Shown here piece after piece: positions 3 to 64,000 of a stretch of DNA of 64,000 nucleotides; position 1 is the stretch's first letter, and every line of letters starts with the position of its first letter. Source of the DNA: an uncultured bacterium (lineage in GTDB: Bacteria; Auribacterota; Erginobacteria; Erginobacterales; Erginobacteraceae). A program made the position numbers and the translations under genes. The DNA is taken from assembly GCA_963822585.1 (NCBI GenBank), contig CAWGIE010000010.1, positions 155,578-219,577 on the forward strand, in the 5' to 3' direction. The notes under the pieces are model-generated. The model was not told the origin of the DNA and did not search any database. It was given only the letters and a program-made list of their open reading frames with translations.

Positions 3-521
3 GGAGGACTGATCCCTATTCTTCATATCAGTGCACACGGATATAGCGAAGGCATCCAGCTTTCAGACAATACAGTGATACCCTGGGCCAATCTTAGACA
101 ATTCCTTGCTCCTATTAATACTGCATTGAAAAATGGTCTACTTGTTTGTTTGTCTTGCTGTGAGGGGTATTCTGGCACTCGAATGGCCATGTTTATAGAA
201 GACAAAGGCTATCCATTCTATGCAATAGTAGCTAACTCCGAAAAACCTCTTTGGTCAGAAACAGCTGTTGCGTATTCAACTTTTTATCACTTACTTTCTA
301 AAGGTGAATTCATTGTCGATGCAGTTAATGCAATGCGAATAGCGTCAGGAAACAAGACTTTTTGGGTAGAAACTGCAGAGCAATCTAGACAAGGTTATCT
401 AGAATACATCAGGAAAGTCAACGTTCCTGATGCCCAAGAACAACTTGAAGAAAAAGTGTCACAGGAAGAACCAACCCATCTTGCAATGCTACGCAAGGTT
501 GGGGAAGAGATAAAGCCATAA
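3..521 (+). CDS. CHAT/caspase-like peptidase domain protein, 5' end cut by window edge
   Basis: Frame of listed ORF 75..521 (GTG at 75) stays open back to nt 3 (GGLIPILHISAHGYSEGIQ...). HISAHG (His-Gly) and LLVCLSCCEGYSG (Cys) resemble the CHAT/caspase His-Cys dyad. Motif-level call only. Confidence 0.45.
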   Translation, partial: GGLIPILHISAHGYSEGIQLSDNTVIPWANLRQFLAPINTALKNGLLVCLSCCEGYSGTRMAMFIEDKGYPFYAIVANSEKPLWSETAVAYSTFYHLLSKGEFIVDAVNAMRIASGNKTFWVETAEQSRQGYLEYIRKVNVPDAQEQLEEKVSQEEPTHLAMLRKVGEEIKP

Positions 522-742
522 CGAGCTAATCCCCCGGACTCTCGTTCCTCGGGTCGGTGATCTTTGCGTTGAGCCGTCGCTCGCGCGTTGGCTCAATATG
601 ACGCTGCTTTGCCAGCGTGCGGATGATCCTTACTTTGTGCGGCCCAATCATGCTCTGGATCCTTCATCAGTCGCAAGGCGCCTCATTTTCAGAGTGGGTC
701 CGCTTCAGTCGAGGCTCAGCGCCACGTTAGACGAGCAAGAAG
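522..742. repeat. attC-like intergenic repeat, island-1 family copy A (ends ...GTCGAGGCTCAGCGCCACGTTAGAC)
   Basis: Shares TGCTT(T/C)GCCAGCG..GCGGCCCAA(T/C)CA and GTCGAGGCTCAGCGCCA blocks with copies at 1676-1860 and 2690-2880. Terminal CGTTAGAC fits an integron core site GTTRRRY. Confidence 0.5.
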
Positions 743-5797: not shown

Positions 5798-6724
5798 ATG
5801 AACACCAAAGCACTCACACGACTCACGGCTCGCCAGTTTGAAAATCTCGTTTACGATCTTCTCGTGGCACTGGGACTACGCAATGCTGCATGGCGCACAC
5901 CAGGACGAGACGCCGGTCGCGATATAGAGGGCGAGTACTTTACTGCTGACATATCGGGAAGTTATGTGAAGCAAAAATGGTATATTGAATGCAAGAAGTA
6001 CAAGTCCTCGGTATCGTGGCCAACCGTACGTGAGAAGTTGAGCTATGCCGAGGCTCAAGCGGCCGATTGCCTTTTTGTCGTGACGACTAGCACCATATCC
6101 CCTCAGTGTCTGGATCAGATCGAGCAATGGAATCATGCTCATTCTAGACCGCAAATCCGGCACTGGGGGAGACACGAGTTATCAAATGCCCTTTTTCGCT
6201 TCCCTCACTTGCTCATCAAGTACCGCCTTCGTGCGCCTCTTCCCGAGATCCGCGCGCGTGCATTTCTAGACTTATCCAAAATCGCACTCAAATATATCTA
6301 CTCTGCCCACTCCGCCAGCGTGTTTGATCGAAGCCCGATGGACTATCTTGAAACCGCATCGATACTCTCCGACTTGATAACGCAGAAACTCAGTCAACTC
6401 GAGAGTACTGGCGTCCTATCAAACGAGCATTTTCATGTCGATCAAGACTCTTTTGAATGGATAAAAGTCATAGGGCAAGTGCCACTCTATTTTGACACGT
6501 ACACTATTCGCGCAATCATCGCTGTCGCTCGACAGATTGCGATGGCGAGACTTGTCACGCTCTGCGTCGTTGGCGATCATAGGCTTGAATTGTCGGGTGA
6601 TCCCTCTTTCCGCACACCTACGGAATCCCAAGAGGCTGATCTCCGCGCGATTGCCTCATGGGGAGACCTTGAATTGGAGTTCGATAACGCCACAATCGCA
6701 ATTGTCGGAAGGAACCACATATGA
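5798..6724 (+). CDS. Mrr_cat-type restriction endonuclease domain protein with unknown C-terminal domain
   Basis: FENLVYDLLVALGL...GRDAGRDIEG...WYIECKKYKSSV...VREKL...LFVVTTSTIS matches the Mrr N-terminal catalytic domain pattern (D..E.K). The ATG at 5798 is preferred over the GTG at 5753. Confidence 0.65.
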   Translation: MNTKALTRLTARQFENLVYDLLVALGLRNAAWRTPGRDAGRDIEGEYFTADISGSYVKQKWYIECKKYKSSVSWPTVREKLSYAEAQAADCLFVVTTSTISPQCLDQIEQWNHAHSRPQIRHWGRHELSNALFRFPHLLIKYRLRAPLPEIRARAFLDLSKIALKYIYSAHSASVFDRSPMDYLETASILSDLITQKLSQLESTGVLSNEHFHVDQDSFEWIKVIGQVPLYFDTYTIRAIIAVARQIAMARLVTLCVVGDHRLELSGDPSFRTPTESQEADLRAIASWGDLELEFDNATIAIVGRNHI

Positions 6725-7461: not shown

Positions 7462-7918
7462 CAAGAACGACACTGTGATGATTTTGGACGACGAACCTCA
7501 GCATCAACAATGGCTTGTGGAGTTTATCGAGAGCAAGAATTATCGCGTCGAATCGGCCATGAACCTTGAGCAGGCTGAGGCATTGCTGCGACAGAATAAA
7601 TATCGGTTTGTTGTCATCGATTTGAATGTTCCGGCCCAAGGCTCATCTGCACGGGTTCTGATGAATGAGGGGGCTCTTGCACGTAGATATCCAGGTATAG
7701 TGGCGGCCCAACTGGCGCGAAACCTAGGATATAGAAATCGCCAGGTGGTTCTGTACTCAGTGCATAACTCTGATGAAGTGCGAAAGGAAGCCGCGAGGAT
7801 CGGCGTGCGTTATATCCTAAAGGGGCGCCCGAAGGAGTTTAAGGAAGAAGTTGAGTCAATCCTTCAACGTGATCCAAGTTCTTCAAGAGTGCCAACAAGC
7901 TCTTCCACTCGTATATGA
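7427..7918 (+). CDS. stand-alone response-regulator receiver (REC) domain protein
   Basis: VMILDDEP...RFVVIDLNVP...VVLYS has the acidic pocket and conserved Asp pattern of REC. There is no output domain. The start could be the internal ATG at 7478. Confidence 0.7.
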   Translation: MHSNIGVIALNNKNDTVMILDDEPQHQQWLVEFIESKNYRVESAMNLEQAEALLRQNKYRFVVIDLNVPAQGSSARVLMNEGALARRYPGIVAAQLARNLGYRNRQVVLYSVHNSDEVRKEAARIGVRYILKGRPKEFKEEVESILQRDPSSSRVPTSSSTRI

Positions 7919-8002
7919 ACCCCGCCACGGGGTTCGCGCCAATGAAGCGCAACGTTGAACGTCTGAATGTTGCCGGGAACCGGGGATAAAGGTTGAGCAC
8001 TT

Positions 8003-58095: not shown

Positions 58096-59286
58096 ATGAA
58101 GCCGAAGCATTATATATTTACGTCGGAATCGGTAACCGAAGGGCATCCCGACAAGGTCTGCGATCAGATCTCGGACACTGTTCTGGACAAGGTCATGAAG
58201 GACGATCCCCAGGGCCGGGTGGCCTGCGAGACTTTCATCACCGCCGGTCTCGCCATCGTGGGGGGAGAGATCACCACTACCACCTATATCGATGTTCCCG
58301 ACCTGGTCCGGGAAGTCGTCAAGAGTATCGGCTATACCGACCCCCGATACGGGTTCGACTACAAGAGTTGCGCCATCCTCAACGCCATCGGCCGCCAGTC
58401 GCCCGACATTTCCCAGGGGGTCACCGAGGGGGAAGGGGAGCACAAGGAACAGGGCGCCGGCGACCAGGGTCTGATGGTCGGCTACGCCTGCCGGGAGACC
58501 CCGGAGTTGATGCCGCTGCCGATCATGATGGCGCACCGTCTCTGCCATCAGCTGGCGAAGGTCAGGAAGGAAAAGGTTCTCCCCTGGCTCGGTCCCGACG
58601 GAAAGTCCCAGGCAACGGTTGAATATCGGGACTGCAAGGTGGTTTCCATCCCCCGGGTGGTTATCGCCGCCCAGCACACCAGTGAAGTGGTCGATAAGTC
58701 CGGGAAGTTCATGACCGAAGAAGCGAAGGAAGCCATCCGGGACGAAGTCATCAAGCCCGTCCTGAAGGATTTTTACCGGGAAGGGGAAACGATCTGGATC
58801 GTGAACGGGACGGGAAAATTCGAGGTCGGGGGACCCCAGTCGGACACGGGCATGACCGGACGCAAGATCATCGTCGACACCTACGGGGGTGAAGCCCCCC
58901 ACGGCGGCGGCGCTTTCTCCGGCAAGGACCCTTCCAAGGTCGACCGGAGCGCCTCTTACATGTGCCGGTATATCGCCAAGAACATCGTCGCCGCCGGGCT
59001 GGCCGACCGCTGTGAAATTCAGCTCGCCTACGCGATCGGGGTGGCGGAGCCGGTCTCAGTTTACGTGAACGCCCACGGGACTAGCGCTCTCACCGATGAC
59101 GAACTGGTCGCCCTGGTCCGGGACGTCTTCGCCCTCAAACCCCGGGGGATCATCGAGATGCTCGATCTCCGCCGCCCGATCTATCGGCGGACCGCCGCTT
59201 ACGGACACTTCGGGCGGGAGGAGGAAGGTTTTACCTGGGAGAAAAAGGACAAGGTCGACGAGCTGAAAAAGGCCGCCAAAAAGTAA
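58096..59286 (+). CDS. metK: S-adenosylmethionine synthetase
   Basis: [29 protein letters not shown]. Confidence 0.9.
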
Positions 59287-59536
59287 CACGGACATTCCTG
59301 TCTGTGTGGGGCGTCCTTCAGGCCTAAAGTAGCACAGACATTCCTGTCTGTGCGGGGCGTCCGCCAGGCCGAAAGTAGCACAGACATTCCAGTCTGTGGC
59401 GCGTGCCCCAGCCAAGAGTAGCACAGACATTCCTGTCTGTGCGGGGCGTCCGCTAGGCCGAAAGTAGCACAGACATTCCTGTCTGTGCGGGGCGTCCTTC
59501 AGGCCTAAAGTAGCACAGACATTCCTGTCTGTGTGA
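59284..59536. repeat. tandem array, 5.5 copies of a 46-bp unit (TAGCACAGACATTCCTGTCTGTGCGGGGCGTCCGCCAGGCCGAAAG)
   Basis: Each unit contains the hairpin CACAGAC-ATTCCT-GTCTGTG. The variants are ordered A-B-C-B'-A. Confidence 0.8.
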
Positions 59537-59591: not shown

Positions 59592-59945
59592 TCAGCCGGT
59601 GGCGTTTCCGGGATCGGGGCTCCGGTCCGGCAGGACGTCCAGCGGGCTGCGGGCCCGGGTCTTCAACTCGCGGGCGACGTGGGTGTAGATCATCGTCGTC
59701 TCCACGCTCTTATGACCTAATAGGTCCTGTGTCTCCCGGATGCCGGTTCGGCCTCCGATCTCGGCCAGGAAGAGGTCAAGGGTCTGCTCGAAAGTGTAGC
59801 CGGGGTGCGCCCGCGCGAAGTGAAGAAACTCCTTCACCCATCGGACCAGGTAGGGCTGATGCTTGGGCGGCGCTAATTTTTTCTCGCGCAAAAACTTGGC
59901 ATAATTATTTAGCACCGTCTGGAATTGTTTTCCTGCCTGGTCCAT
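59592..59945 (-). pseudogene. intI: integron integrase remnant with large internal deletion (117 aa instead of about 320-340)
   Basis: N-terminus [32 protein letters not shown] aligns with IntI1 YVHWVRAFIRFHGVRHP...VEAFLSWLA. Its C-terminus [22 protein letters not shown]...RSPLDVLPD aligns with IntI1 [22 protein letters not shown]...RSPLDALPP. The R/K/HxxR catalytic middle is absent. Confidence 0.7.
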
Positions 59946-60639
59946 AACTAATCCCCAGCATTATCCTCAACTTTATATATATTAAGGGAATATAGATGTT
60001 AGATTAATAAATATGATATTTCTGATGAAGTATATTTCCTTTATAAAGAGGGGAGAGAAAAAATCCCGGTTTCTCATTGATAAAATATATCTCGGGGGGT
60101 AAAATACTCCCAGTTTTCCGATGACTGTATGGATGCCCTAGGGGGGCTCTGTGCATCAGTGTTGCCAGAGGGTATACGCCAGGTTTAGCCACCGCTTCTT
60201 TTCGGATGGAGGCGGTGGCTTTTTCTTTTAATTTTGCCTAACAAATATGTAATCAATAGACTTCCTGAAAAAGTACGAATTTTTGCCAAGGATTTGCTTG
60301 TCTCGATTGTCAAATATATCAAAGAAGAGAATCGCCATTATAAATTGATTGGGGCATTGATTTGAAAGCAGGAGTTGTTCCCGGATCCCCAAGGAGCTAT
60401 CAAAATATTGATCTCCCGTATTATGTATAATAAATATACATAACCAGGATAATTAAGGGTAATAGGTAATTCCGCTACCTTTATCCTGATCAGGAACAAA
60501 GGAATACCCGATCTTTTCCGAGGAAATATTGTTGCGAAGGCATCAAAAGGGAGATTGGGTATAATAACAAGATATGCGGACCGCTCGCTAAGGCTCGCTT
60601 TCGCCTGACGGCGAATCCGCTTATCGGAGAGCTGAGCAG

Positions 60640-60775
60640 CAAGCTGCTCGATCAGCTGGAAAGGCTGCGCGCTTCGCGCTCCGCCTATCCAGCCGCTCGA
60701 GCAGAAATCGGCCTAATCGCCGAGCAAGCTCGGCATTAGGTCAATTCTGCTGCTCAGCTTCTCCGTTCTGGAGGT
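60640..60775. repeat. attC-like imperfect inverted repeat (first recombination site of array 2)
   Basis: CTATCCAGCCGCTCGAGCAGAAATCGGCCTAATCGCCGAGC / GCTCGGCATTAGGTCAATTCTGCTGCTCAGC arms. Shares its left end with sites at 62835 and 63730. Confidence 0.5.
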
Positions 60776-60779
60776 AAAA

Positions 60780-61293
60780 ATGAAAATAATTACTAAAACT
60801 AAAGCAGCATTACTAATAATCCCTGCGGCACTACTCTTCACCTTCATCAGCTTTTCCTCCCATGCTGATGACCTAAAGGAAGTGCCAAGAACACAGCTTA
60901 TAAAGCGGGGAGATTTATTATTCAAGGTAGATTCGGAAACGCCCTTCACGGGAAAATCGGTTGGCTTTTGGCCAAACGGGCAAAAGATGTTCGAAGATGA
61001 GTTTATTAACGGCATGCCCCATGGGAAATGGATCGGTTGGCGTGAGGATGGGCGGTTATTCAAAAGAGGAAGAATATATAAAAGGCAAACTGCATGGAAA
61101 AACGGTTTTCTGGCACAAGAATGGAAAAAAAGATTTCGAAGGCACTTATTGTAACGGCATTAAATGCGGTATATGGCTATCCTGGTGGGAGAACGGCGCG
61201 AAAAAGTCTGAGGTACAATACACAGAAGGGAAAATTATCAGCCAAAAATATTGGGATGAACAAGGAAAACCGATCAATTTTCTAGATAAATAA
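60780..61293 (+). pseudogene. MORN-repeat (YwqK-like) secreted protein, frameshifted
   Basis: ORFs 60780..61154 and 60961..61293 are in different frames but both carry MORN-like G.w..w.enG units (GKWIGWREDG / GKTVFWHKNGKK / GIWLSWWENG). The frame switch lies near 61045-61070. Confidence 0.5.
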
Positions 61294-61350
61294 TATTCAT
61301 TTTTCTCTTACTTGAAAATATATGCAAAATCGATAATTGAATTAATCTCC

Positions 61351-61420
61351 AGAACCAGTCGCTACAGCAGACCAGAGCCCGCTCTGCGGGCTCTGGCTGC
61401 TGAGCTCGGCGTTAAGCGAG
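61351..61420. repeat. attC-like site (CCAGTCGCTACAGCAGACCAGAGCCCGC / GCGGGCTCTGGCTGCTG ... GGCGTTAAGCG)
   Basis: Near-perfect 17-bp arms. GTTAAGC fits GTTRRRY. Ends 4 nt before the next ATG. Confidence 0.55.
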
Positions 61421-61424
61421 TGAT

Positions 61425-61808
61425 ATGCAACCATCATCATCAACAGGAAGAAAAGCACGCATGGCGTTGTTGCCTCTCTCGTGGTTAGTCGCGTTTGCCA
61501 CAGCCGCGGGTATTCTGTTAGTTGTAGCTATGATTCGTGGAGTGGCCATCAGACAACTATTACAAACAGACTCTCCTTGGCTTCTAGCCCTAATCTTGCC
61601 CTCGTTAGCCTTTGGGAAGGTTTTGGGACTCATTTTAATCAATCTCATCGCTTATATAACACCACTGCGCCGGGTTTTTGAGAAGGAATGCAGAGACACC
61701 GGCCGTCAAGATTTCTCCAAGGCCATCTTTGGCCTCATGCGGTGGGCTCTCATACTTTTTTTGGTGACTGTGGTCGGAGCGGTTGCATTTCTTTCATTCA
61801 CCCAATGA
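61425..61808 (+). CDS. hypothetical small membrane protein (cassette ORF)
   Basis: 3 TM helices. No family recognised. Confidence 0.5.
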   Translation: MQPSSSTGRKARMALLPLSWLVAFATAAGILLVVAMIRGVAIRQLLQTDSPWLLALILPSLAFGKVLGLILINLIAYITPLRRVFEKECRDTGRQDFSKAIFGLMRWALILFLVTVVGAVAFLSFTQ

Positions 61809-61814
61809 GAACAT

Positions 61815-61887
61815 CGCCTAACAAACCGCTCCACCCGACTTTTGACCGCCATGCGGCGGCCAAAAGCGGGTGAGCTCTACGTTATAT
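61815..61887. repeat. attC-like site (CGCCTAACAAACCGCTCCACCCGAC...GACCGCCATGCGGCGGCC...TACGTTATAT)
   Basis: GCCTAAC is exactly RYYYAAC. The overall layout parallels class-1 59-be sites. Confidence 0.55.
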
Positions 61888-61992
61888 GAAAAATTATCCG
61901 ATTGCTTTAATCGGCTTGTTCCTTGTTACTTCCGCGAACTCTGAATCTGAACTGACTCCCGAACCACCCCCCTTGTCATAGGCACGGATAAT

Positions 61993-62517
61993 ATGCTCTC
62001 CTGGATACTGCCTGATGAGAACTCCAGGGAATACCATACCCCCGAATCTACCATTGAGGAGTTTAACCGACTGGTCGGGGAATGTATTACCACGGAAGGT
62101 AAAATCTGGGAGGGCGCAGAAGATTTAAAGGTCGGCCTTATAGAATGGTTTATCCCAAGAATACTGGCGGAGCATTATAAATTGCGGGGTCGGGATGTGG
62201 TTACCCTGATCGAACAATTCGGACCACCTAAAAGAATCTTGCGGGTACGAGAAGATATCAATCTGGAAAGCCACGAATGGTTGATGAACGATGTCCCCTT
62301 GAGTTTCGGTTGGGTGTTGACGGTCGATGGCGACGATATATGGTTCGAGAAAAGAGCCCCTTTTGAGTGCTATGAATACGATGATTTCTTTATTTGGGTA
62401 GCAGGGAAGGACTCTGATTCAAAAAAAGCTGATAAAGTTTTAGCCATAAGTCCTCGATCCTCCCGATATGATCAATATATCTATAATCTAAATATATTCG
62501 AACAAGAAGATGACTAA
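61993..62517 (+). CDS. hypothetical protein (cassette ORF, 174 aa)
   Basis: No motif recognised. Confidence 0.5.
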   Translation: MLSWILPDENSREYHTPESTIEEFNRLVGECITTEGKIWEGAEDLKVGLIEWFIPRILAEHYKLRGRDVVTLIEQFGPPKRILRVREDINLESHEWLMNDVPLSFGWVLTVDGDDIWFEKRAPFECYEYDDFFIWVAGKDSDSKKADKVLAISPRSSRYDQYIYNLNIFEQEDD

Positions 62518-62590
62518 CATATAACCAACCGCTCCACTCGACCTTGTCCGCTTCGCGGCCCCGGCGAGTGAGCTTTTCGTAGGCTCAAAA
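62518..62590. repeat. attC-like site (CATATAACCAACCGCTCCACTCGACC...CCGCTTCGCGGCCCCGGCG...)
   Basis: The left end is homologous to 61822 and 1676. The internal CCGCTTCGCGG palindrome resembles aadA-type 59-be. Confidence 0.5.
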
Positions 62591-62602
62591 AAAAGAAATC
62601 AA

Positions 62603-62818
62603 ATGATCGAACCTGAAGTAGCCGCAAGGATAGTTGATTCATTATTCAAATCATTATTAATTCCGATCGTCCTCTTCATATTCCTCCTAAAATGGCGTAG
62701 AGATAAGAAGAAGGGACGAGTCAGAAAAACTCTACCTCCAGGATGGGGACGGTTCATTAAAAGATCGGCATGGATAATATTTTGGATTATTTTACTTTGG
62801 ATTACTTCGCTTAGATAA
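62603..62818 (+). CDS. hypothetical small membrane protein (71 aa, cassette ORF)
   Basis: Two TM helices, Lys/Arg-rich loop. Confidence 0.4.
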   Translation: MIEPEVAARIVDSLFKSLLIPIVLFIFLLKWRRDKKKGRVRKTLPPGWGRFIKRSAWIIFWIILLWITSLR

Positions 62819-62965
62819 CCCTTGAACAACAATGAACAAGCCTATCCAGCCGCTCAAGCAGACCGGAAGGGCTAGTGCAACTATCAAACGTATTTATTTC
62901 GCCGGAGGTTTTCGGGGAGCAAACTTTCTCAGTTGGCCCCTTCCGGCAGCTTAGCTTTCCGATTA
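62819..62965. repeat. attC-like site (AACAACAATGAAC...CCAGCCGCTCAAGCAGACCGGAAGGGC / GCCCCTTCCGGCAGCTTAGC)
   Basis: About 85% identical to 63728-63848. Confidence 0.55.
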
Positions 62966-62978
62966 GATATAAATAATT

Positions 62979-63308
62979 ATGAATAAAAATGAAATATCGA
63001 AATCATTTGAAACGGATTTTACAAATCCTGGATCAATAAAATCGGGAGAATATTTGCAGGAAAAGATTTTATCCCGTGCGCGAAATATTGTTCAAAAAAA
63101 TCGTCCGAATTTAATAGAATTATTAAAAGAATGGTTGGCCCTTAGATCGGAACCAAAAACTATGTTAGCTGTGAGATTAGCAAAAGAACTATCATTAATC
63201 GAACTACTTCCAGAAATTGAGAAACTTAAAAATGATATTCAAACTGGAAAATGTTTTTTTCCATTTTACATAAATATAATTAACGATAGTTTAGCTTCGC
63301 TAAGATAG
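62979..63308 (+). CDS. hypothetical protein (cassette ORF, 109 aa)
   Basis: AT-rich. No motif recognised. Confidence 0.45.
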   Translation: MNKNEISKSFETDFTNPGSIKSGEYLQEKILSRARNIVQKNRPNLIELLKEWLALRSEPKTMLAVRLAKELSLIELLPEIEKLKNDIQTGKCFFPFYINIINDSLASLR

Positions 63309-63329
63309 ACGATCTTAATATAGATTTAA

Positions 63330-63425
63330 CCATCTAACAATTCATTGCAGCGGACTTGCGGATAAAGCGCCGCAATGCTCGTTACACTCGCACCCCTTCG
63401 GGGCGCTGAATTCTAACGTTCGCCA
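63330..63425. repeat. attC site, class-1-like (TCTAACAATTCATTGCAGCGGAC...GCGCCGCAATGCTCGTTACAC)
   Basis: The first 23 nt match the aadA-type 59-be start GTCTAACAATTCGTTCAAGCCGAC at 19/23. Ends with a CGTTACAC core-like motif. Confidence 0.6.
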
Positions 63426-63428
63426 CTA

Positions 63429-63773
63429 ATGAAAATAAGTAAAAAGACATCTAAAATCTCTTTGATTATTTACATAGTTTTATTATTGCTTTCATGTTTT
63501 CTGGCTTGCGCCCCTGGTGGACGCGTTTTTTGGTATTGCATAATGACCATCTTTGCGATTCCCCCACTTTTTGCTGGACCACGCTTATATAGAATTCTTG
63601 GAGCGGTTGCGCTCTTAGCCGGAATTATGTTGATTATCTTTGATTACCGTGCTGGTAAAAGTTTTAGCGATGATATCGAGAAAGTCCCGAAACAATATCA
63701 AGATATCAGCTCGACAAAAGATTTGGCAAACCAGTCGCTCAAGCTGACCGGAAGGGCTGGTGCAACTGTCTAA
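63429..63773 (+). CDS. hypothetical membrane protein (cassette ORF)
   Basis: Three hydrophobic helices. The 3' end runs into the next attC-like repeat, so the true stop is uncertain. Confidence 0.45.
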   Translation: MKISKKTSKISLIIYIVLLLLSCFLACAPGGRVFWYCIMTIFAIPPLFAGPRLYRILGAVALLAGIMLIIFDYRAGKSFSDDIEKVPKQYQDISSTKDLANQSLKLTGRAGATV

Positions 63774-63848
63774 CATTTTCAACTTCGCCGGAGTTTTTCG
63801 AGGTAGCATAGTTTTTTAGTCGGCCCCTTCCGGCCGCTTAGATAGTAT
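63728..63848. repeat. attC-like site (CCAGTCGCTCAAGCTGACCGGAAGGGC / GCCCCTTCCGGCCGCTTAGATAG)
   Basis: Homologous to 62835-62965. Confidence 0.55.
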
Positions 63849-63918
63849 GAAAAAGTTGTGAACCTTCTTTGACACAACGGTATTGTCACTGACAACCGTC
63901 AAAGAAAGGAGGTCCACA

Positions 63919-64000
63919 ATGTACTACGTCGGAATCGACCATCACAAAAAGACCAATGCCGTCACCGTGGTGGATAAGGAGGGGACAATCCTGAAACGAG
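63919..64000 (+). mobile_element. IS110-family transposase, N-terminus only (cut by window end)
   Basis: RBS AAAGGAGG. MYYVGIDHHKKTNAVTVVDKEGTIL fits the IS110-family start M..VGID..K....V.V.D..G, including the first Asp of DEDD. Upstream inverted repeat CTTTGACACAACGG...CCGTCAAAG. Confidence 0.45.

What the first reader, a model, noticed from the sequence alone, without database searches (positions are those of the whole stretch)
63330..63425. attC site nearly identical at its 5' end to the aadA-type class-1 59-base element
TCTAACAATTCATTGCAGCGGAC matches the canonical aadA 59-be start GTCTAACAATTCGTTCAAGCCGAC at 19 of 23 positions. It is followed by an internal GCGCCGC palindrome and a CGTTACAC core-like end. 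Such similarity in an environmental high-GC genome suggests cassette exchange with mobile-integron pools. Alternatively, the conserved R''/L'' box may be under structural constraint.
Basis: partly seen in the sequence, partly recalled or inferred. Interest (0 to 1): 0.5.

Follow-up and report, generated by a model that had tools for sequence, protein, structure and literature searches.

The report
Ordinary integron cassette recombination site
This is a genuine but ordinary attC recombination site at the end of a gene cassette in a decayed chromosomal integron of an uncultured bacterium. Its likeness to the clinical aadA site is confined to one short motif and is no evidence of exchange with resistance integrons.

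Summary
The quoted sequence is present, and the 19/23 match to the verified aadA1 attC start is correct. The site is a real attC, and it spans 63332-63424 (93 nt).

- **Boundary.** A second metagenomic contig carries the same cassette, and identity with the window stops exactly at G63418.
- **Model support.** A covariance model built from nine other attCs finds the full site at 27.4 bits. Box and bulge geometry is canonical.
- **Likeness to aadA.** Other attCs examined already match the aadA 23-mer at 9-17/23. Over all 45 arm positions the site is 69% identical to aadA1, and its neighbours are 56-73%. Only the 11-mer TCTAACAATTC stands out.
- **No link to mobile integrons.** There is no significant BLAST hit in 72,556 plasmids. 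The cassette protein has no plasmid homologue.
- **Setting.** The integrase next to the array has lost about 200 internal residues. The host is related to Candidatus Auribacterota.
- **One oddity.** An internal hairpin competes with the recombinogenic fold, whose predicted probability is 0.0003-0.01, against 0.33-0.77 for other sites.

Verdict: new member of a known kind, low interest.

The parts
63332..63424 (+). The attC site, top strand, 93 nt. The last 6 nt (TTCGCC) belong to the next cassette.
   Evidence: CM R1 hit 63332-63424, 27.4 bits, full model. The geometry scan reports the same coordinates. Identity with L001 ends at 63418.
63332..63338 (+). R'' inverse core ATCTAAC (fits RYYYAAC)
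   Evidence: Read directly. Aligned to the R'' columns of the model.
63339..63343 (+). 5' unpaired central spacer AATTC, identical to that of aadA1
63344..63354 (+). L'' arm ATT[G]CAGCGG[A]. G63347 and A63354 are the bulged (extrahelical) bases, with 6 positions between them.
   Evidence: Hand parse reproduced by the model alignment. 8 of 9 pairs form in the window copy and 9 of 9 in the L001 copy.
63355..63402 (+). Variable terminal structure with two small hairpins (TTGCGG/CCGCAA at 63356-75; CCCC/GGGG at 63393-403). It also holds an internal L'/R'-like decoy: GCGCCGCAAT 63367-76 followed by GTTACAC 63381-87.
   Evidence: Top-strand minimum-energy folds. The competing bottom-strand hairpin CATTGCGGCG/CGCTGCAATG appears.
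63403..63411 (+). L' arm GCGCTGAAT
63412..63417 (+). 3' unpaired central spacer TCTAAC (6 nt)
63418..63424 (+). R' core GTTCGCC. The crossover point lies between G63418 and T63419.
   Evidence: 98.7% identity with L001 runs over window 62523-63418 and stops there.
62962..63418 (+). The gene cassette that this attC terminates
   Evidence: The left end follows the G of the preceding attC's R' (GATTAGA, 62961-67).
62979..63308 (+). Cassette ORF, 109 aa, function unknown
   Evidence: 13 homologues at E 5e-62 to 2e-20. No Pfam or NCBIfam match. No plasmid homologue.
62840..62967 (+). Preceding attC, of the long ~128-nt array type, with non-canonical R'' (GCCTATC) and R' (GATTAGA)
   Evidence: Read. 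It is 80-83% identical to other long attCs of L001. Not detected by R1.
59592..59945 (-). Truncated integron integrase gene. The N-terminal ~70 aa are fused to the C-terminal ~50 aa, and about 200 residues are missing.
   Evidence: Best NCBIfam match is integron integrase TIGR02249, profile positions 277-315 only. It aligns to VchIntIA 2A3V residues 10-70 and 267-317. No other intI-like ORF exists in the window.
60683..63845 (+). The rest of the cassette array. attCs lie at about 60683-60772, 61349-61417, 61816-61887, 62519-62585, 62840-62967, 63332-63424 and 63725-~63842.
   Evidence: GC falls from about 0.58 to 0.40-0.46.

Best explanation
63332-63424 is the attC recombination site of an ordinary promoterless gene cassette (62962-63418, one 109-aa ORF). 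The cassette is the sixth or so in a cassette array beside a truncated integron-integrase gene, in the chromosome of an uncultured bacterium related to Candidatus Auribacterota.

**How it works (inferred from the known mechanism).** As in other integrons, the bottom strand would fold into an imperfect hairpin.
- The R box is ATCTAAC/GTTCGCC.
- The L box is ATT-CAGCGG/GCGCTG-AAT.
- Two bases are bulged out on the bottom strand, C and T.
- A 5/6-nt unpaired spacer separates the boxes.
- A branched 48-nt tip closes the hairpin.

An integron integrase would cut between the bottom-strand complements of G63418 and T63419. That the boundary has been used is shown by a second contig in which the same cassette is followed by a different one from exactly that base.

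**The resemblance to aadA.** It is the generic resemblance among attCs of this geometry, plus an identical 11-mer (R'' and spacer). It does not indicate recent traffic with class 1 integrons.

**Current state.** The site is probably a weak or decaying substrate. The local integrase is dead. The window copy has lost one L-box base pair relative to the other copy. An internal decoy hairpin is predicted to out-compete the recombinogenic fold.
For: **Context.**
- The truncated intI lies on the minus strand. Small ORFs lie on the plus strand, each followed by an attC. GC drops across the array.

**Boundary.**
- Window 62523-63418 matches L001 9543-10442 at 98.7%. The sequences diverge immediately after ...TCTAACG.
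- Two further cassette junctions differ between the two contigs in the same way.

**Geometry.**
- The pattern AAC-N5-3bp-bulge-6bp-bulge...6bp-3bp-N5/6-GTT with at least 8 of 9 pairs occurs three times in the window.
- All three are on the plus strand inside the array, and one is 63332-63424. Shuffled windows give 0.78 on average.
- This geometry fits the published attC description: bulge spacing of 6, last bulge a T on the bottom strand, spacer of 5-6 nt, length 57-141 nt, branched tips in chromosomal integrons (PMC5027507).

**Model.**
- CM R1, built without this site, scores it 27.4 bits (E 4.6e-5 over 112 kb) across the whole model.
- The L001 copy scores 21.9 bits.

**Against exchange with mobile integrons.**
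Against: - **Folding.** The canonical fold is not the predicted minimum-energy fold of the bottom strand. Its probability is 2.6e-4 in the window copy and 0.012 in the L001 copy, against 0.33-0.77 for nine other attCs.
- **First bulge.** The first bulged base is C on the bottom strand, not the usual G.
- **R pairing.** R''/R' pair at only 4 of 7 positions in the array context.
- **Model limits.** R1 was trained mostly on attCs from the same two arrays, and its E-values are rough.
- **Exhaustive scan.** With filters off, R1 reported only a 5.9-bit short parse. I attribute this to a hit-length limit of that scan, which I did not test.
- **Few contexts.** Only two copies of the site are known.
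- **The 11-mer.** Its identity with aadA1 is not explained by any documented constraint.
Confidence: 0.85

Rival explanations
1. The functional attC is the short 56-nt form 63332-63387, ending in the CGTTACAC named by the first reader. The next 31 nt would then be the start of the following cassette.
For: The bottom strand of 63330-63392 folds into a tidy hairpin of -10.5 kcal/mol, with a 10-bp stem and a TAACGA/TTGTTA closing stem. This hairpin is part of the minimum-energy fold of the whole region. A length of 56-57 nt is at the lower limit for attCs.
Against: - The window and L001 stay identical for 31 nt beyond GTTACAC and diverge only at 63418.
- The short stem has no bulged bases and almost no unpaired spacer.
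- R1 gives the short parse only 5.9 bits (E 3.9), against 27.4 bits for the long one.
- The fold is not better than shuffles (z = -1.3).
- GTTACAC departs from GTTRRRY.
Confidence: 0.05
2. The site is a hybrid made by a deletion between two related attCs. R''-L''-L'a-R'a (ending at GTTACAC) belonged to this cassette. The tip hairpin plus L'b-spacer-R'b (63390-63424) is the remnant of the attC of a lost downstream cassette. The hybrid R''/L''...L'b/R'b is what has been recombined since. This concerns origin and is compatible with the best explanation.
For: There are two successive L'-like/R'-like halves with similar wording: GCGCCGCAAT..CGTTACAC and GCGCTGAAT..CGTTCGCC. Either can pair with the single L''. 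Cassette loss and decay are plausible beside a dead integrase.
Against: The similarity between the two halves is short and weak, with a global alignment score of 2 over about 25 nt. Branched tips are normal in chromosomal attCs (PMC5027507). No copy with the supposed intervening cassette was found.
Confidence: 0.15
3. The site is a true relative of the aadA-type 59-base element. The cassette was made in, or passed through, the same cassette pool that feeds class 1 integrons.
For: - The 11-mer TCTAACAATTC is identical, and the 5' end matches at 19/23. That is higher than any of about 28 other attCs compared (maximum 17).
- P is about 0.005 under a local attC baseline.
- The spacer lengths are 5/6 nt, as in aadA1.
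- The cassette's own 5' end (A)TTAGAT would rebuild the aadA1-like core GTTAGAT.
Against: - Whole-arm identity is 0.69, within the range of the neighbours.
- The tip and the length are unrelated: 93 nt and branched, against 60 nt.
- No BLAST hit to any plasmid attC.
- The ORF is absent from plasmids.
- Its homologues are all metagenomic and mostly not in cassettes.
- The host is a PVC-group lineage.
- aadA was chosen as comparator after the fact, out of many known attC types.
Confidence: 0.08
4. It is not a recombination site at all. It is a chance inverted repeat or a transcription terminator after the ORF.
For: The folding energy of the region is only modestly better than shuffles (z = -0.8 top strand, -2.2 bottom strand). 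Rfam has nothing.
Against: All the attC-specific evidence listed above. In addition, no T-run follows the GC hairpin.
Confidence: 0.02

Closest known systems
attC sites of sedentary chromosomal integrons (for example Vibrio cholerae VCRs and other long attCs with branched variable terminal structures)
   Same: R''/L''/L'/R' box order, AAC...GTT triplets, two bulged bases 6 positions apart, 5-6-nt unpaired spacer, long branched tip, position after a promoterless ORF in a same-strand array beside intI, and a cassette junction at G|TT.
   Different: The first bulged base is C, not G, on the bottom strand. The array is heterogeneous (about 60-70-nt, 93-nt and about 128-nt attC types side by side) instead of species-uniform. 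The recombinogenic fold is predicted to be strongly out-competed by an internal hairpin. The integrase is truncated.
aadA1/aadA7-type 59-base element (attC) of class 1 mobile integrons
   Same: Identical R''+spacer 11-mer TCTAACAATTC, the same 5/6-nt spacer lengths, the same bulge spacing with the bulged A in a 'GAC' context, and an R' core that would be GTTAGAT in the circular cassette (ignoring one extra A).
   Different: 93 nt against 60 nt, and a branched tip against a 3-nt loop. The L boxes differ (ATTGCAGCGG/GCGCTGAAT against GTTCAAGCCG/CGGCTTAAC). No BLAST-level similarity. The cassette gene is unknown in plasmids. Overall arm identity is no higher than for neighbouring, clearly unrelated attCs.
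CALIN / degenerate integrons (attC clusters whose integrase is missing or inactivated)
   Same: An array of attCs with no functional integrase in cis. Signs of decay include R' triplets reading GAT or GTA, an R'' reading ATC, and an IS inserted in the last visible attC.
   Different: A recognisable integrase remnant is still in the canonical position and orientation. By IntegronFinder's terms it is therefore closer to an integron with a pseudo-intI than to a CALIN.

Membership tests
attC (integron cassette recombination site) | Inverse core R'' (RYYYAAC) and core R' (GTTRRRY) with the conserved AAC/GTT triplets at the two ends | tested here: met
   ATCTAAC at 63332-38 and GTTCGCC at 63418-24. 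The last 4 nt of R' depart from RRRY, but they come from the next cassette.
attC (integron cassette recombination site) | L''/L' pairing with extrahelical bases on the L'' arm, a 6-bp spacing between the first and last bulge, and a T as the last bulge on the bottom strand (PMC5027507) | tested here: met
   ATT[G]CAGCGG[A] pairs with GCGCTG-AAT at 8 of 9 positions (window) and 9 of 9 (L001 copy). The spacing is 6. The last bulge is A on top, which is T on the bottom. The first bulge is C on the bottom strand instead of the usual G.
attC (integron cassette recombination site) | Unpaired central spacer of 5-6 nt on each arm | tested here: met
   AATTC (5 nt) and TCTAAC (6 nt).
attC (integron cassette recombination site) | Length of 57-141 nt with a variable terminal structure | tested here: met
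   93 nt with a 48-nt branched tip.
attC (integron cassette recombination site) | Lies at the 3' end of a cassette in a same-orientation array next to intI/attI | tested here: met
   It follows ORF 62979-63308. At least six other attCs lie on the same strand. The intI remnant at 59592-59945 is on the opposite strand.
attC (integron cassette recombination site) | The cassette junction falls at G|TT of R', shown by the same cassette in different contexts | tested here: met
   Identity with L001 ends at G63418. This rests on only one other context.
attC (integron cassette recombination site) | Detected by a structural covariance model of attCs | tested here: met
   My own model R1 (nine other attCs including aadA1) gives 27.4 bits, E 4.6e-5. 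IntegronFinder's curated model was not available. The exhaustive run showed only a 5.9-bit short parse.
attC (integron cassette recombination site) | The bottom strand readily adopts the recombinogenic hairpin | tested here: not met
   P(canonical L stem) is 2.6e-4 (window) and 0.012 (L001), against 0.33-0.77 in nine comparators. The competing fold is 4.7 and 2.2 kcal/mol more stable respectively. This is a thermodynamic prediction only. The literature treats folding propensity as a modulator of efficiency, not as a defining feature.
attC (integron cassette recombination site) | Recombined by an integron integrase | not testable with these tools
   Needs a suicide-conjugation or excision assay.
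aadA-type 59-base element of class 1 integrons | About 60 nt with a minimal loop, and sequence similarity along the whole element | tested here: not met
   93 nt. Arm identity is 31/45, within the range of the neighbours. There is no BLASTN hit to any of the roughly 2,500 plasmids that carry the aadA element.
aadA-type 59-base element of class 1 integrons | The cassette or its gene circulates in mobile integrons or plasmids | tested here: not met
   tblastn against 72,556 plasmids found no match. The 20-mer is absent from GTDB representative genomes and from JGI metagenomes.
complete (functional) integron | Full-length IntI with the catalytic residues and the IntI-specific domain | tested here: not met
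   The ORF is 117 aa. It matches only the first ~70 and last ~50 residues of VchIntIA. The TIGR02249 score is 41.9 against a cutoff of 265.

The most novel reading that the evidence does not exclude
The internal L'/R'-like decoy (63367-87) is not debris. It would be a built-in brake: by sequestering L'' in a stable non-recombinogenic hairpin it makes the attC 'bistable' and keeps the cassette (or the two-cassette block 62581-63418, whose internal junction has a crippled GAT core) from being excised. On this reading it would be an attC-encoded way of fixing cassettes in an array.
Probability: 0.1. Interest if true: 0.4.

Novelty: new member of a known kind. Interest (0 to 1): 0.15.

Why it matters
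It matters little beyond bookkeeping.

- **Annotation.** It documents one more attC and cassette in a decaying chromosomal integron of a poorly known PVC-group lineage.
- **A caution for scans.** A 19/23 match to the textbook aadA 59-base element is not a marker of traffic with clinical integrons. The conserved attC scaffold alone gives 14-17/23.
- **The only mildly useful lead.** The site is a natural example of an attC whose tip encodes a strong competing fold. Such sites can be used to test how folding propensity limits cassette excision.

Tried and rejected
- **Rfam.** A scan of the whole window found nothing. Rfam has no attC family, so this is uninformative.
- **BLASTN against plasmids.** The sensitive search gave two hits at E>=0.3. 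The Salmonella one lies inside a hypothetical CDS with no integron nearby and was rejected as chance.
- **Exact 20-mer TCTAACAATTCATTGCAGCG.** It gave zero hits in JGI metagenome contigs and in GTDB representative genomes. No further contexts were obtained that way.
- **Exact-protein look-ups.** The window's own ORF, the downstream cassette ORF and the upstream 71-aa ORF are not on record. The right-hand boundary could therefore not be confirmed from the side of the next cassette.
- **Homologues' attCs.** I asked whether the ORF's homologues carry the same attC.
  - Those in arrays (L003-L005) have unrelated attCs.
  - The others (L002, L087-L092) have no attC at all.
  - No covariation analysis was possible.
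- **MAFFT alignment of full-length attCs.** It misaligned the aadA1 and L003 sites. I replaced it with tip-trimmed sequences.
- **Covariance model with filters off.** It lost the long parse and all the roughly 128-nt attCs. I take this to be a hit-length limit, which I did not verify.
- **Immunity-protein idea.** In L002 a homologue of the ORF follows a toxin-like ORF, which suggested a toxin-immunity role. Pfam gave no support, so the idea stays a guess.
- **Integron in close relatives.** I looked beside metK in four of the five close relatives (L010 holds no sequence downstream of metK). No attCs were found.

Full report
**What is at the coordinates.**

The string TCTAACAATTCATTGCAGCGGAC begins at 63333 and matches the first 23 nt after the G of the aadA1 attC at 19 positions.

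I verified the comparator rather than trusting memory. The 60-nt aadA1 element GTCTAACAATTCGTTCAAGCCGACGCCGCTTCGCGGCGCGGCTTAACTCAAGCGTTAGAT is found at 100% identity in about 1,960 plasmids. I also read it directly behind aadA1 in a class 1 integron (L006).

Against random sequence of the window's composition, a match of at least 19/23 has P = 7e-9 per position, or about 0.001 per window. Two details are wrong:
- GCGCCGC (63367-73) is not a palindrome.
- 'CGTTACAC' is not the end of the site (see below).

**Context.**

- **Chromosome.** Bases 1-59,500 are chromosomal, mostly 0.50-0.65 G+C. The first 15 kb are lower, at 0.45-0.55.
- **Host.** metK lies at 58096-59286. Its product is 87-89% identical to MetK of MAGs named Candidatus Erginobacter occultus, Ca. 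Euphemobacter frigidus and 'PVC group bacterium'. These belong to the phylum Ca. Auribacterota.
- **Integrase remnant.** At 59592-59945, on the minus strand, is a 117-aa ORF.
  - Its best family match is integron integrase TIGR02249, but only profile positions 277-315.
  - It aligns to residues 10-70 and 267-317 of the V. cholerae integron integrase structure 2A3V.
  - It is therefore an integrase with about 200 internal residues deleted.
  - No other integrase-like ORF is in the window.
- **Array.** From about 60,000 to the window end, G+C falls to 0.40-0.46. Small plus-strand ORFs alternate with inverted-repeat sites. This is the layout of an integron cassette array.
- **Relatives.** Four of the five close relatives could be checked beside metK, and none has attCs there.

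**Where the site really ends.**

The cassette ORF 62979-63308 has a 99%-identical copy on an ENA metagenome contig (L001).
- Window 62523-63418 aligns to L001 9543-10442 at 98.7%.
- The two sequences diverge immediately after ...GAATTCTAACG. The window continues TTCGCCACTAATG. L001 continues ATAAGCGGCG.
- The break is therefore at G63418|T63419, inside GTTCGCC. That is 6 nt after a stretch (GCGCTGAAT) that pairs with the L'' stretch ATT-CAGCGG.
- Two other junctions differ between the contigs in the same manner. The attC at window 62519 equals the one at L001 7831 but is followed by different cassettes. The cassette beginning TAGGCTCAAAAAAAAG follows different attCs in the two contigs.

These are cassette-level rearrangements, and the right end of the site is 63424, not 63387.

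**Anatomy.**

| Element | Sequence | Coordinates |
|---|---|---|
| R'' | ATCTAAC | 63332-38 |
| 5' spacer | AATTC | 63339-43 |
| L'' | ATT[G]CAGCGG[A] | 63344-54 |
| Tip (two small hairpins) | 48 nt | 63355-63402 |
| L' | GCGCTGAAT | 63403-11 |
| 3' spacer | TCTAAC | 63412-17 |
| R' | GTTCGCC | 63418-24 |

This matches the published description of attCs (PMC5027507):
- AAC/GTT are the only invariant triplets.
- There are two or three extrahelical bases on the L'' arm.
- A 6-bp stem separates the first and last of them.
- The last one is a T on the bottom strand.
- The spacers are 5-6 nt.
- Length is 57-141 nt.
- Branched tips occur in chromosomal integrons.

The one deviation is the first bulged base, which is C on the bottom strand rather than the usual G. 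By my hand parse, the dfrA1 attC and one L003 attC also have a top-strand G there. That is inference.

**Tests against chance.**

- A strict pattern (AAC-N5-3bp-bulge-6bp-bulge...6bp-3bp-N5/6-GTT, at least 8 of 9 Watson-Crick pairs) gives three hits in the 64-kb window on both strands.
- All three are on the plus strand between 61349 and 63424, and one is 63332-63424. Forty block-shuffled windows average 0.78 hits.
- I built a covariance model (R1) from nine other attCs. Seven are short ones from the window and L001, one is a different L001 type, and one is aadA1. Tips were trimmed and the structure was given by hand.
- R1 finds 63332-63424 over the whole model at 27.4 bits, E 4.6e-5 in 112 kb. 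The alignment reproduces the hand parse.
- The L001 copy scores 21.9 bits.

Caveats:
- The training set is dominated by one attC family from the same arrays.
- The E-values are rough.
- With filters off, the search reported only a 5.9-bit parse ending at 63387 and missed every roughly 128-nt attC. I attribute this to a hit-length limit of the exhaustive scan, but I did not verify it.

**Is it 'aadA-type'?**

| Comparison with aadA1 | Focal site | Other attCs |
|---|---|---|
| 23-mer at the 5' end | 19/23 | 9-17/23 |
| All 45 arm positions | 31/45 (0.69) | 0.56-0.73 (eight neighbours) |

The 'other attCs' for the 23-mer are about 28 sites from the window, L001, the unrelated arrays L003-L005 and dfrA1.

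- With position-specific match frequencies from 20 of the other attCs, P(>=19) is about 0.005 per site.
- The neighbours match aadA1 better in the L boxes. This site matches better only in R''+spacer, at 11/12.
- The tip and the length are unrelated.
- Sensitive BLASTN of 63300-63430 against 72,556 plasmids returned two hits at E>=0.3. The one examined is inside a CDS with no integron nearby.
- The ORF has no tblastn match in plasmids.
- Its 13 homologues are all from metagenomes or MAGs.
  - Those in arrays carry unrelated attCs.
  - Most are not in cassettes at all.
- The 20-mer is absent from GTDB representatives and from JGI metagenomes.

The literature states that the spacer sequence is not conserved. 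The AATTC identity is therefore not explained by a known constraint. It may be chance, since the comparator was chosen after the fact among many attC types. It may also be a remote shared subtype. It is not evidence for exchange with mobile integrons.

**An unusual property.**

The tip contains a second L'-like/R'-like half (GCGCCGCAAT 63367-76 ... GTTACAC 63381-87). On the bottom strand it pairs with L'' in an uninterrupted 10-bp stem.

| Bottom strand (DNA parameters) | Predicted probability of canonical L stem | Status of canonical fold |
|---|---|---|
| Window copy | 2.6e-4 | 4.7 kcal/mol above the minimum |
| L001 copy | 0.012 | 2.2 kcal/mol above the minimum |
| Nine other attCs, including aadA1 | 0.33-0.77 | Is the minimum-energy fold |

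- The window copy differs from L001 by a 2-nt indel that removes one L-box pair, giving 8/9 against 9/9.
- Published work links the propensity to form non-recombinogenic structures to lower recombination (PMC5027507, citing Loot et al. 2010).
- I therefore read the site as a weak substrate that is probably decaying, which fits the dead integrase.
- The decoy could be the relic of a deletion that fused two related attCs, but the similarity of the two halves is weak. It could instead be a functional brake on excision. Neither idea could be tested.

**Verdict.**

- This is a genuine attC, correctly spotted, with the wrong 3' end named and an over-reading of its likeness to aadA.
- It is a new member of a well-known kind.

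Noticed in passing
window 63725-64000: The last visible attC (R'' GGCAAAC at 63725; L' GCTTAG at 63836-41) loses similarity to its sister attCs right after L'. It is followed by an IS110-family (DEDD) transposase start at 63919, cut by the window end (weak Pfam hit). This resembles IS1111-family elements such as ISKpn4 and ISPst6, which target one end of attC sites (PMC11187229).
   Followed up: partly
window 62961-67; window 62579-85; L001 ~699-705; L001 10442-48; window ~60573: Several cassette junctions have non-canonical core triplets: GAT (GATTAGA, GATATGG, GATAAGC) or GTA (GTAGGCT) instead of GTT. Two attCs have ATC instead of AAC in R'' (GCCTATC at 60683 and 62840). The cassette starting ATAAGCGG/ATATGCGG seems to keep its 'AT' start in two contexts, in L001 after the focal attC and near window 60573. 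Either the array is decaying, or this lineage's integrase tolerated G|AT.
   Followed up: partly
window 62581-63418 = L001 9601-10442: The cassette carrying the 71-aa membrane ORF (62603-62818) and the focal cassette are adjacent in both contigs. Their shared junction has the crippled GATTAGA core. They may move as a fused two-cassette unit. Only two contexts are known.
   Followed up: no
window 516-574, ~1668-1850, 7890-7960 (+ strand): There are further attC-like sites in the lower-GC first 15 kb of the window. R1 gives 25.2 bits (E 2e-4) at 516-574, and weak hits at 1759-1848 and 7890-7960. 'ATCTAACAAACGGCTACAGTGGAC' at 1670 matches the focal 5' end at 16/23. ORF 743-1675 between them has a Schlafen AlbA_2 domain. 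This may be a second attC cluster about 58 kb from the integrase remnant.
   Followed up: partly
window 59280-59533: A tandem array of 5.6 copies of a 46-nt unit (AAAGTAGCACAGACATTCCTGTCTGTGCGGGGCGTCCGCCAGGCCG, 86% matches) lies between metK and the 3' end of the truncated integrase gene.
   Followed up: partly
window 60573-60680 and L001 10442-10590: A conserved non-coding stretch lies upstream of the attC type GCCTATCCASCCGCTCGAGCAGAAATCGGCCTAATCGCCGAGCAAGCTCGGCATTAGGT. It has an inverted repeat GATAWGCGG...CCGCTTATC and the motif CCGCTTATCGGRGAGCTGAGC. A weak minus-strand attC-like hit lies at 60619-60665. It may be an ORF-less cassette.
   Followed up: no
L002 2-1046; L087 2180-3327; L088 2781-3345: Outside integrons, homologues of the cassette ORF sit directly after, or overlapping, another small or medium ORF. 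In L002 that is a toxin-like C-terminal ORF with the motif FNMPGGGTEHIF, with an orphan copy of the motif downstream. This suggests an immunity or antitoxin role. Pfam gives nothing.
   Followed up: partly
L003 6001-6402: The gene call for the homologue P0007 (133 aa) starts inside an attC (L003 6009-6064, 41.7 bits). The true start is probably the ATG near 6070. The family has apparently been recruited into cassettes with unrelated attCs at least twice.
   Followed up: no
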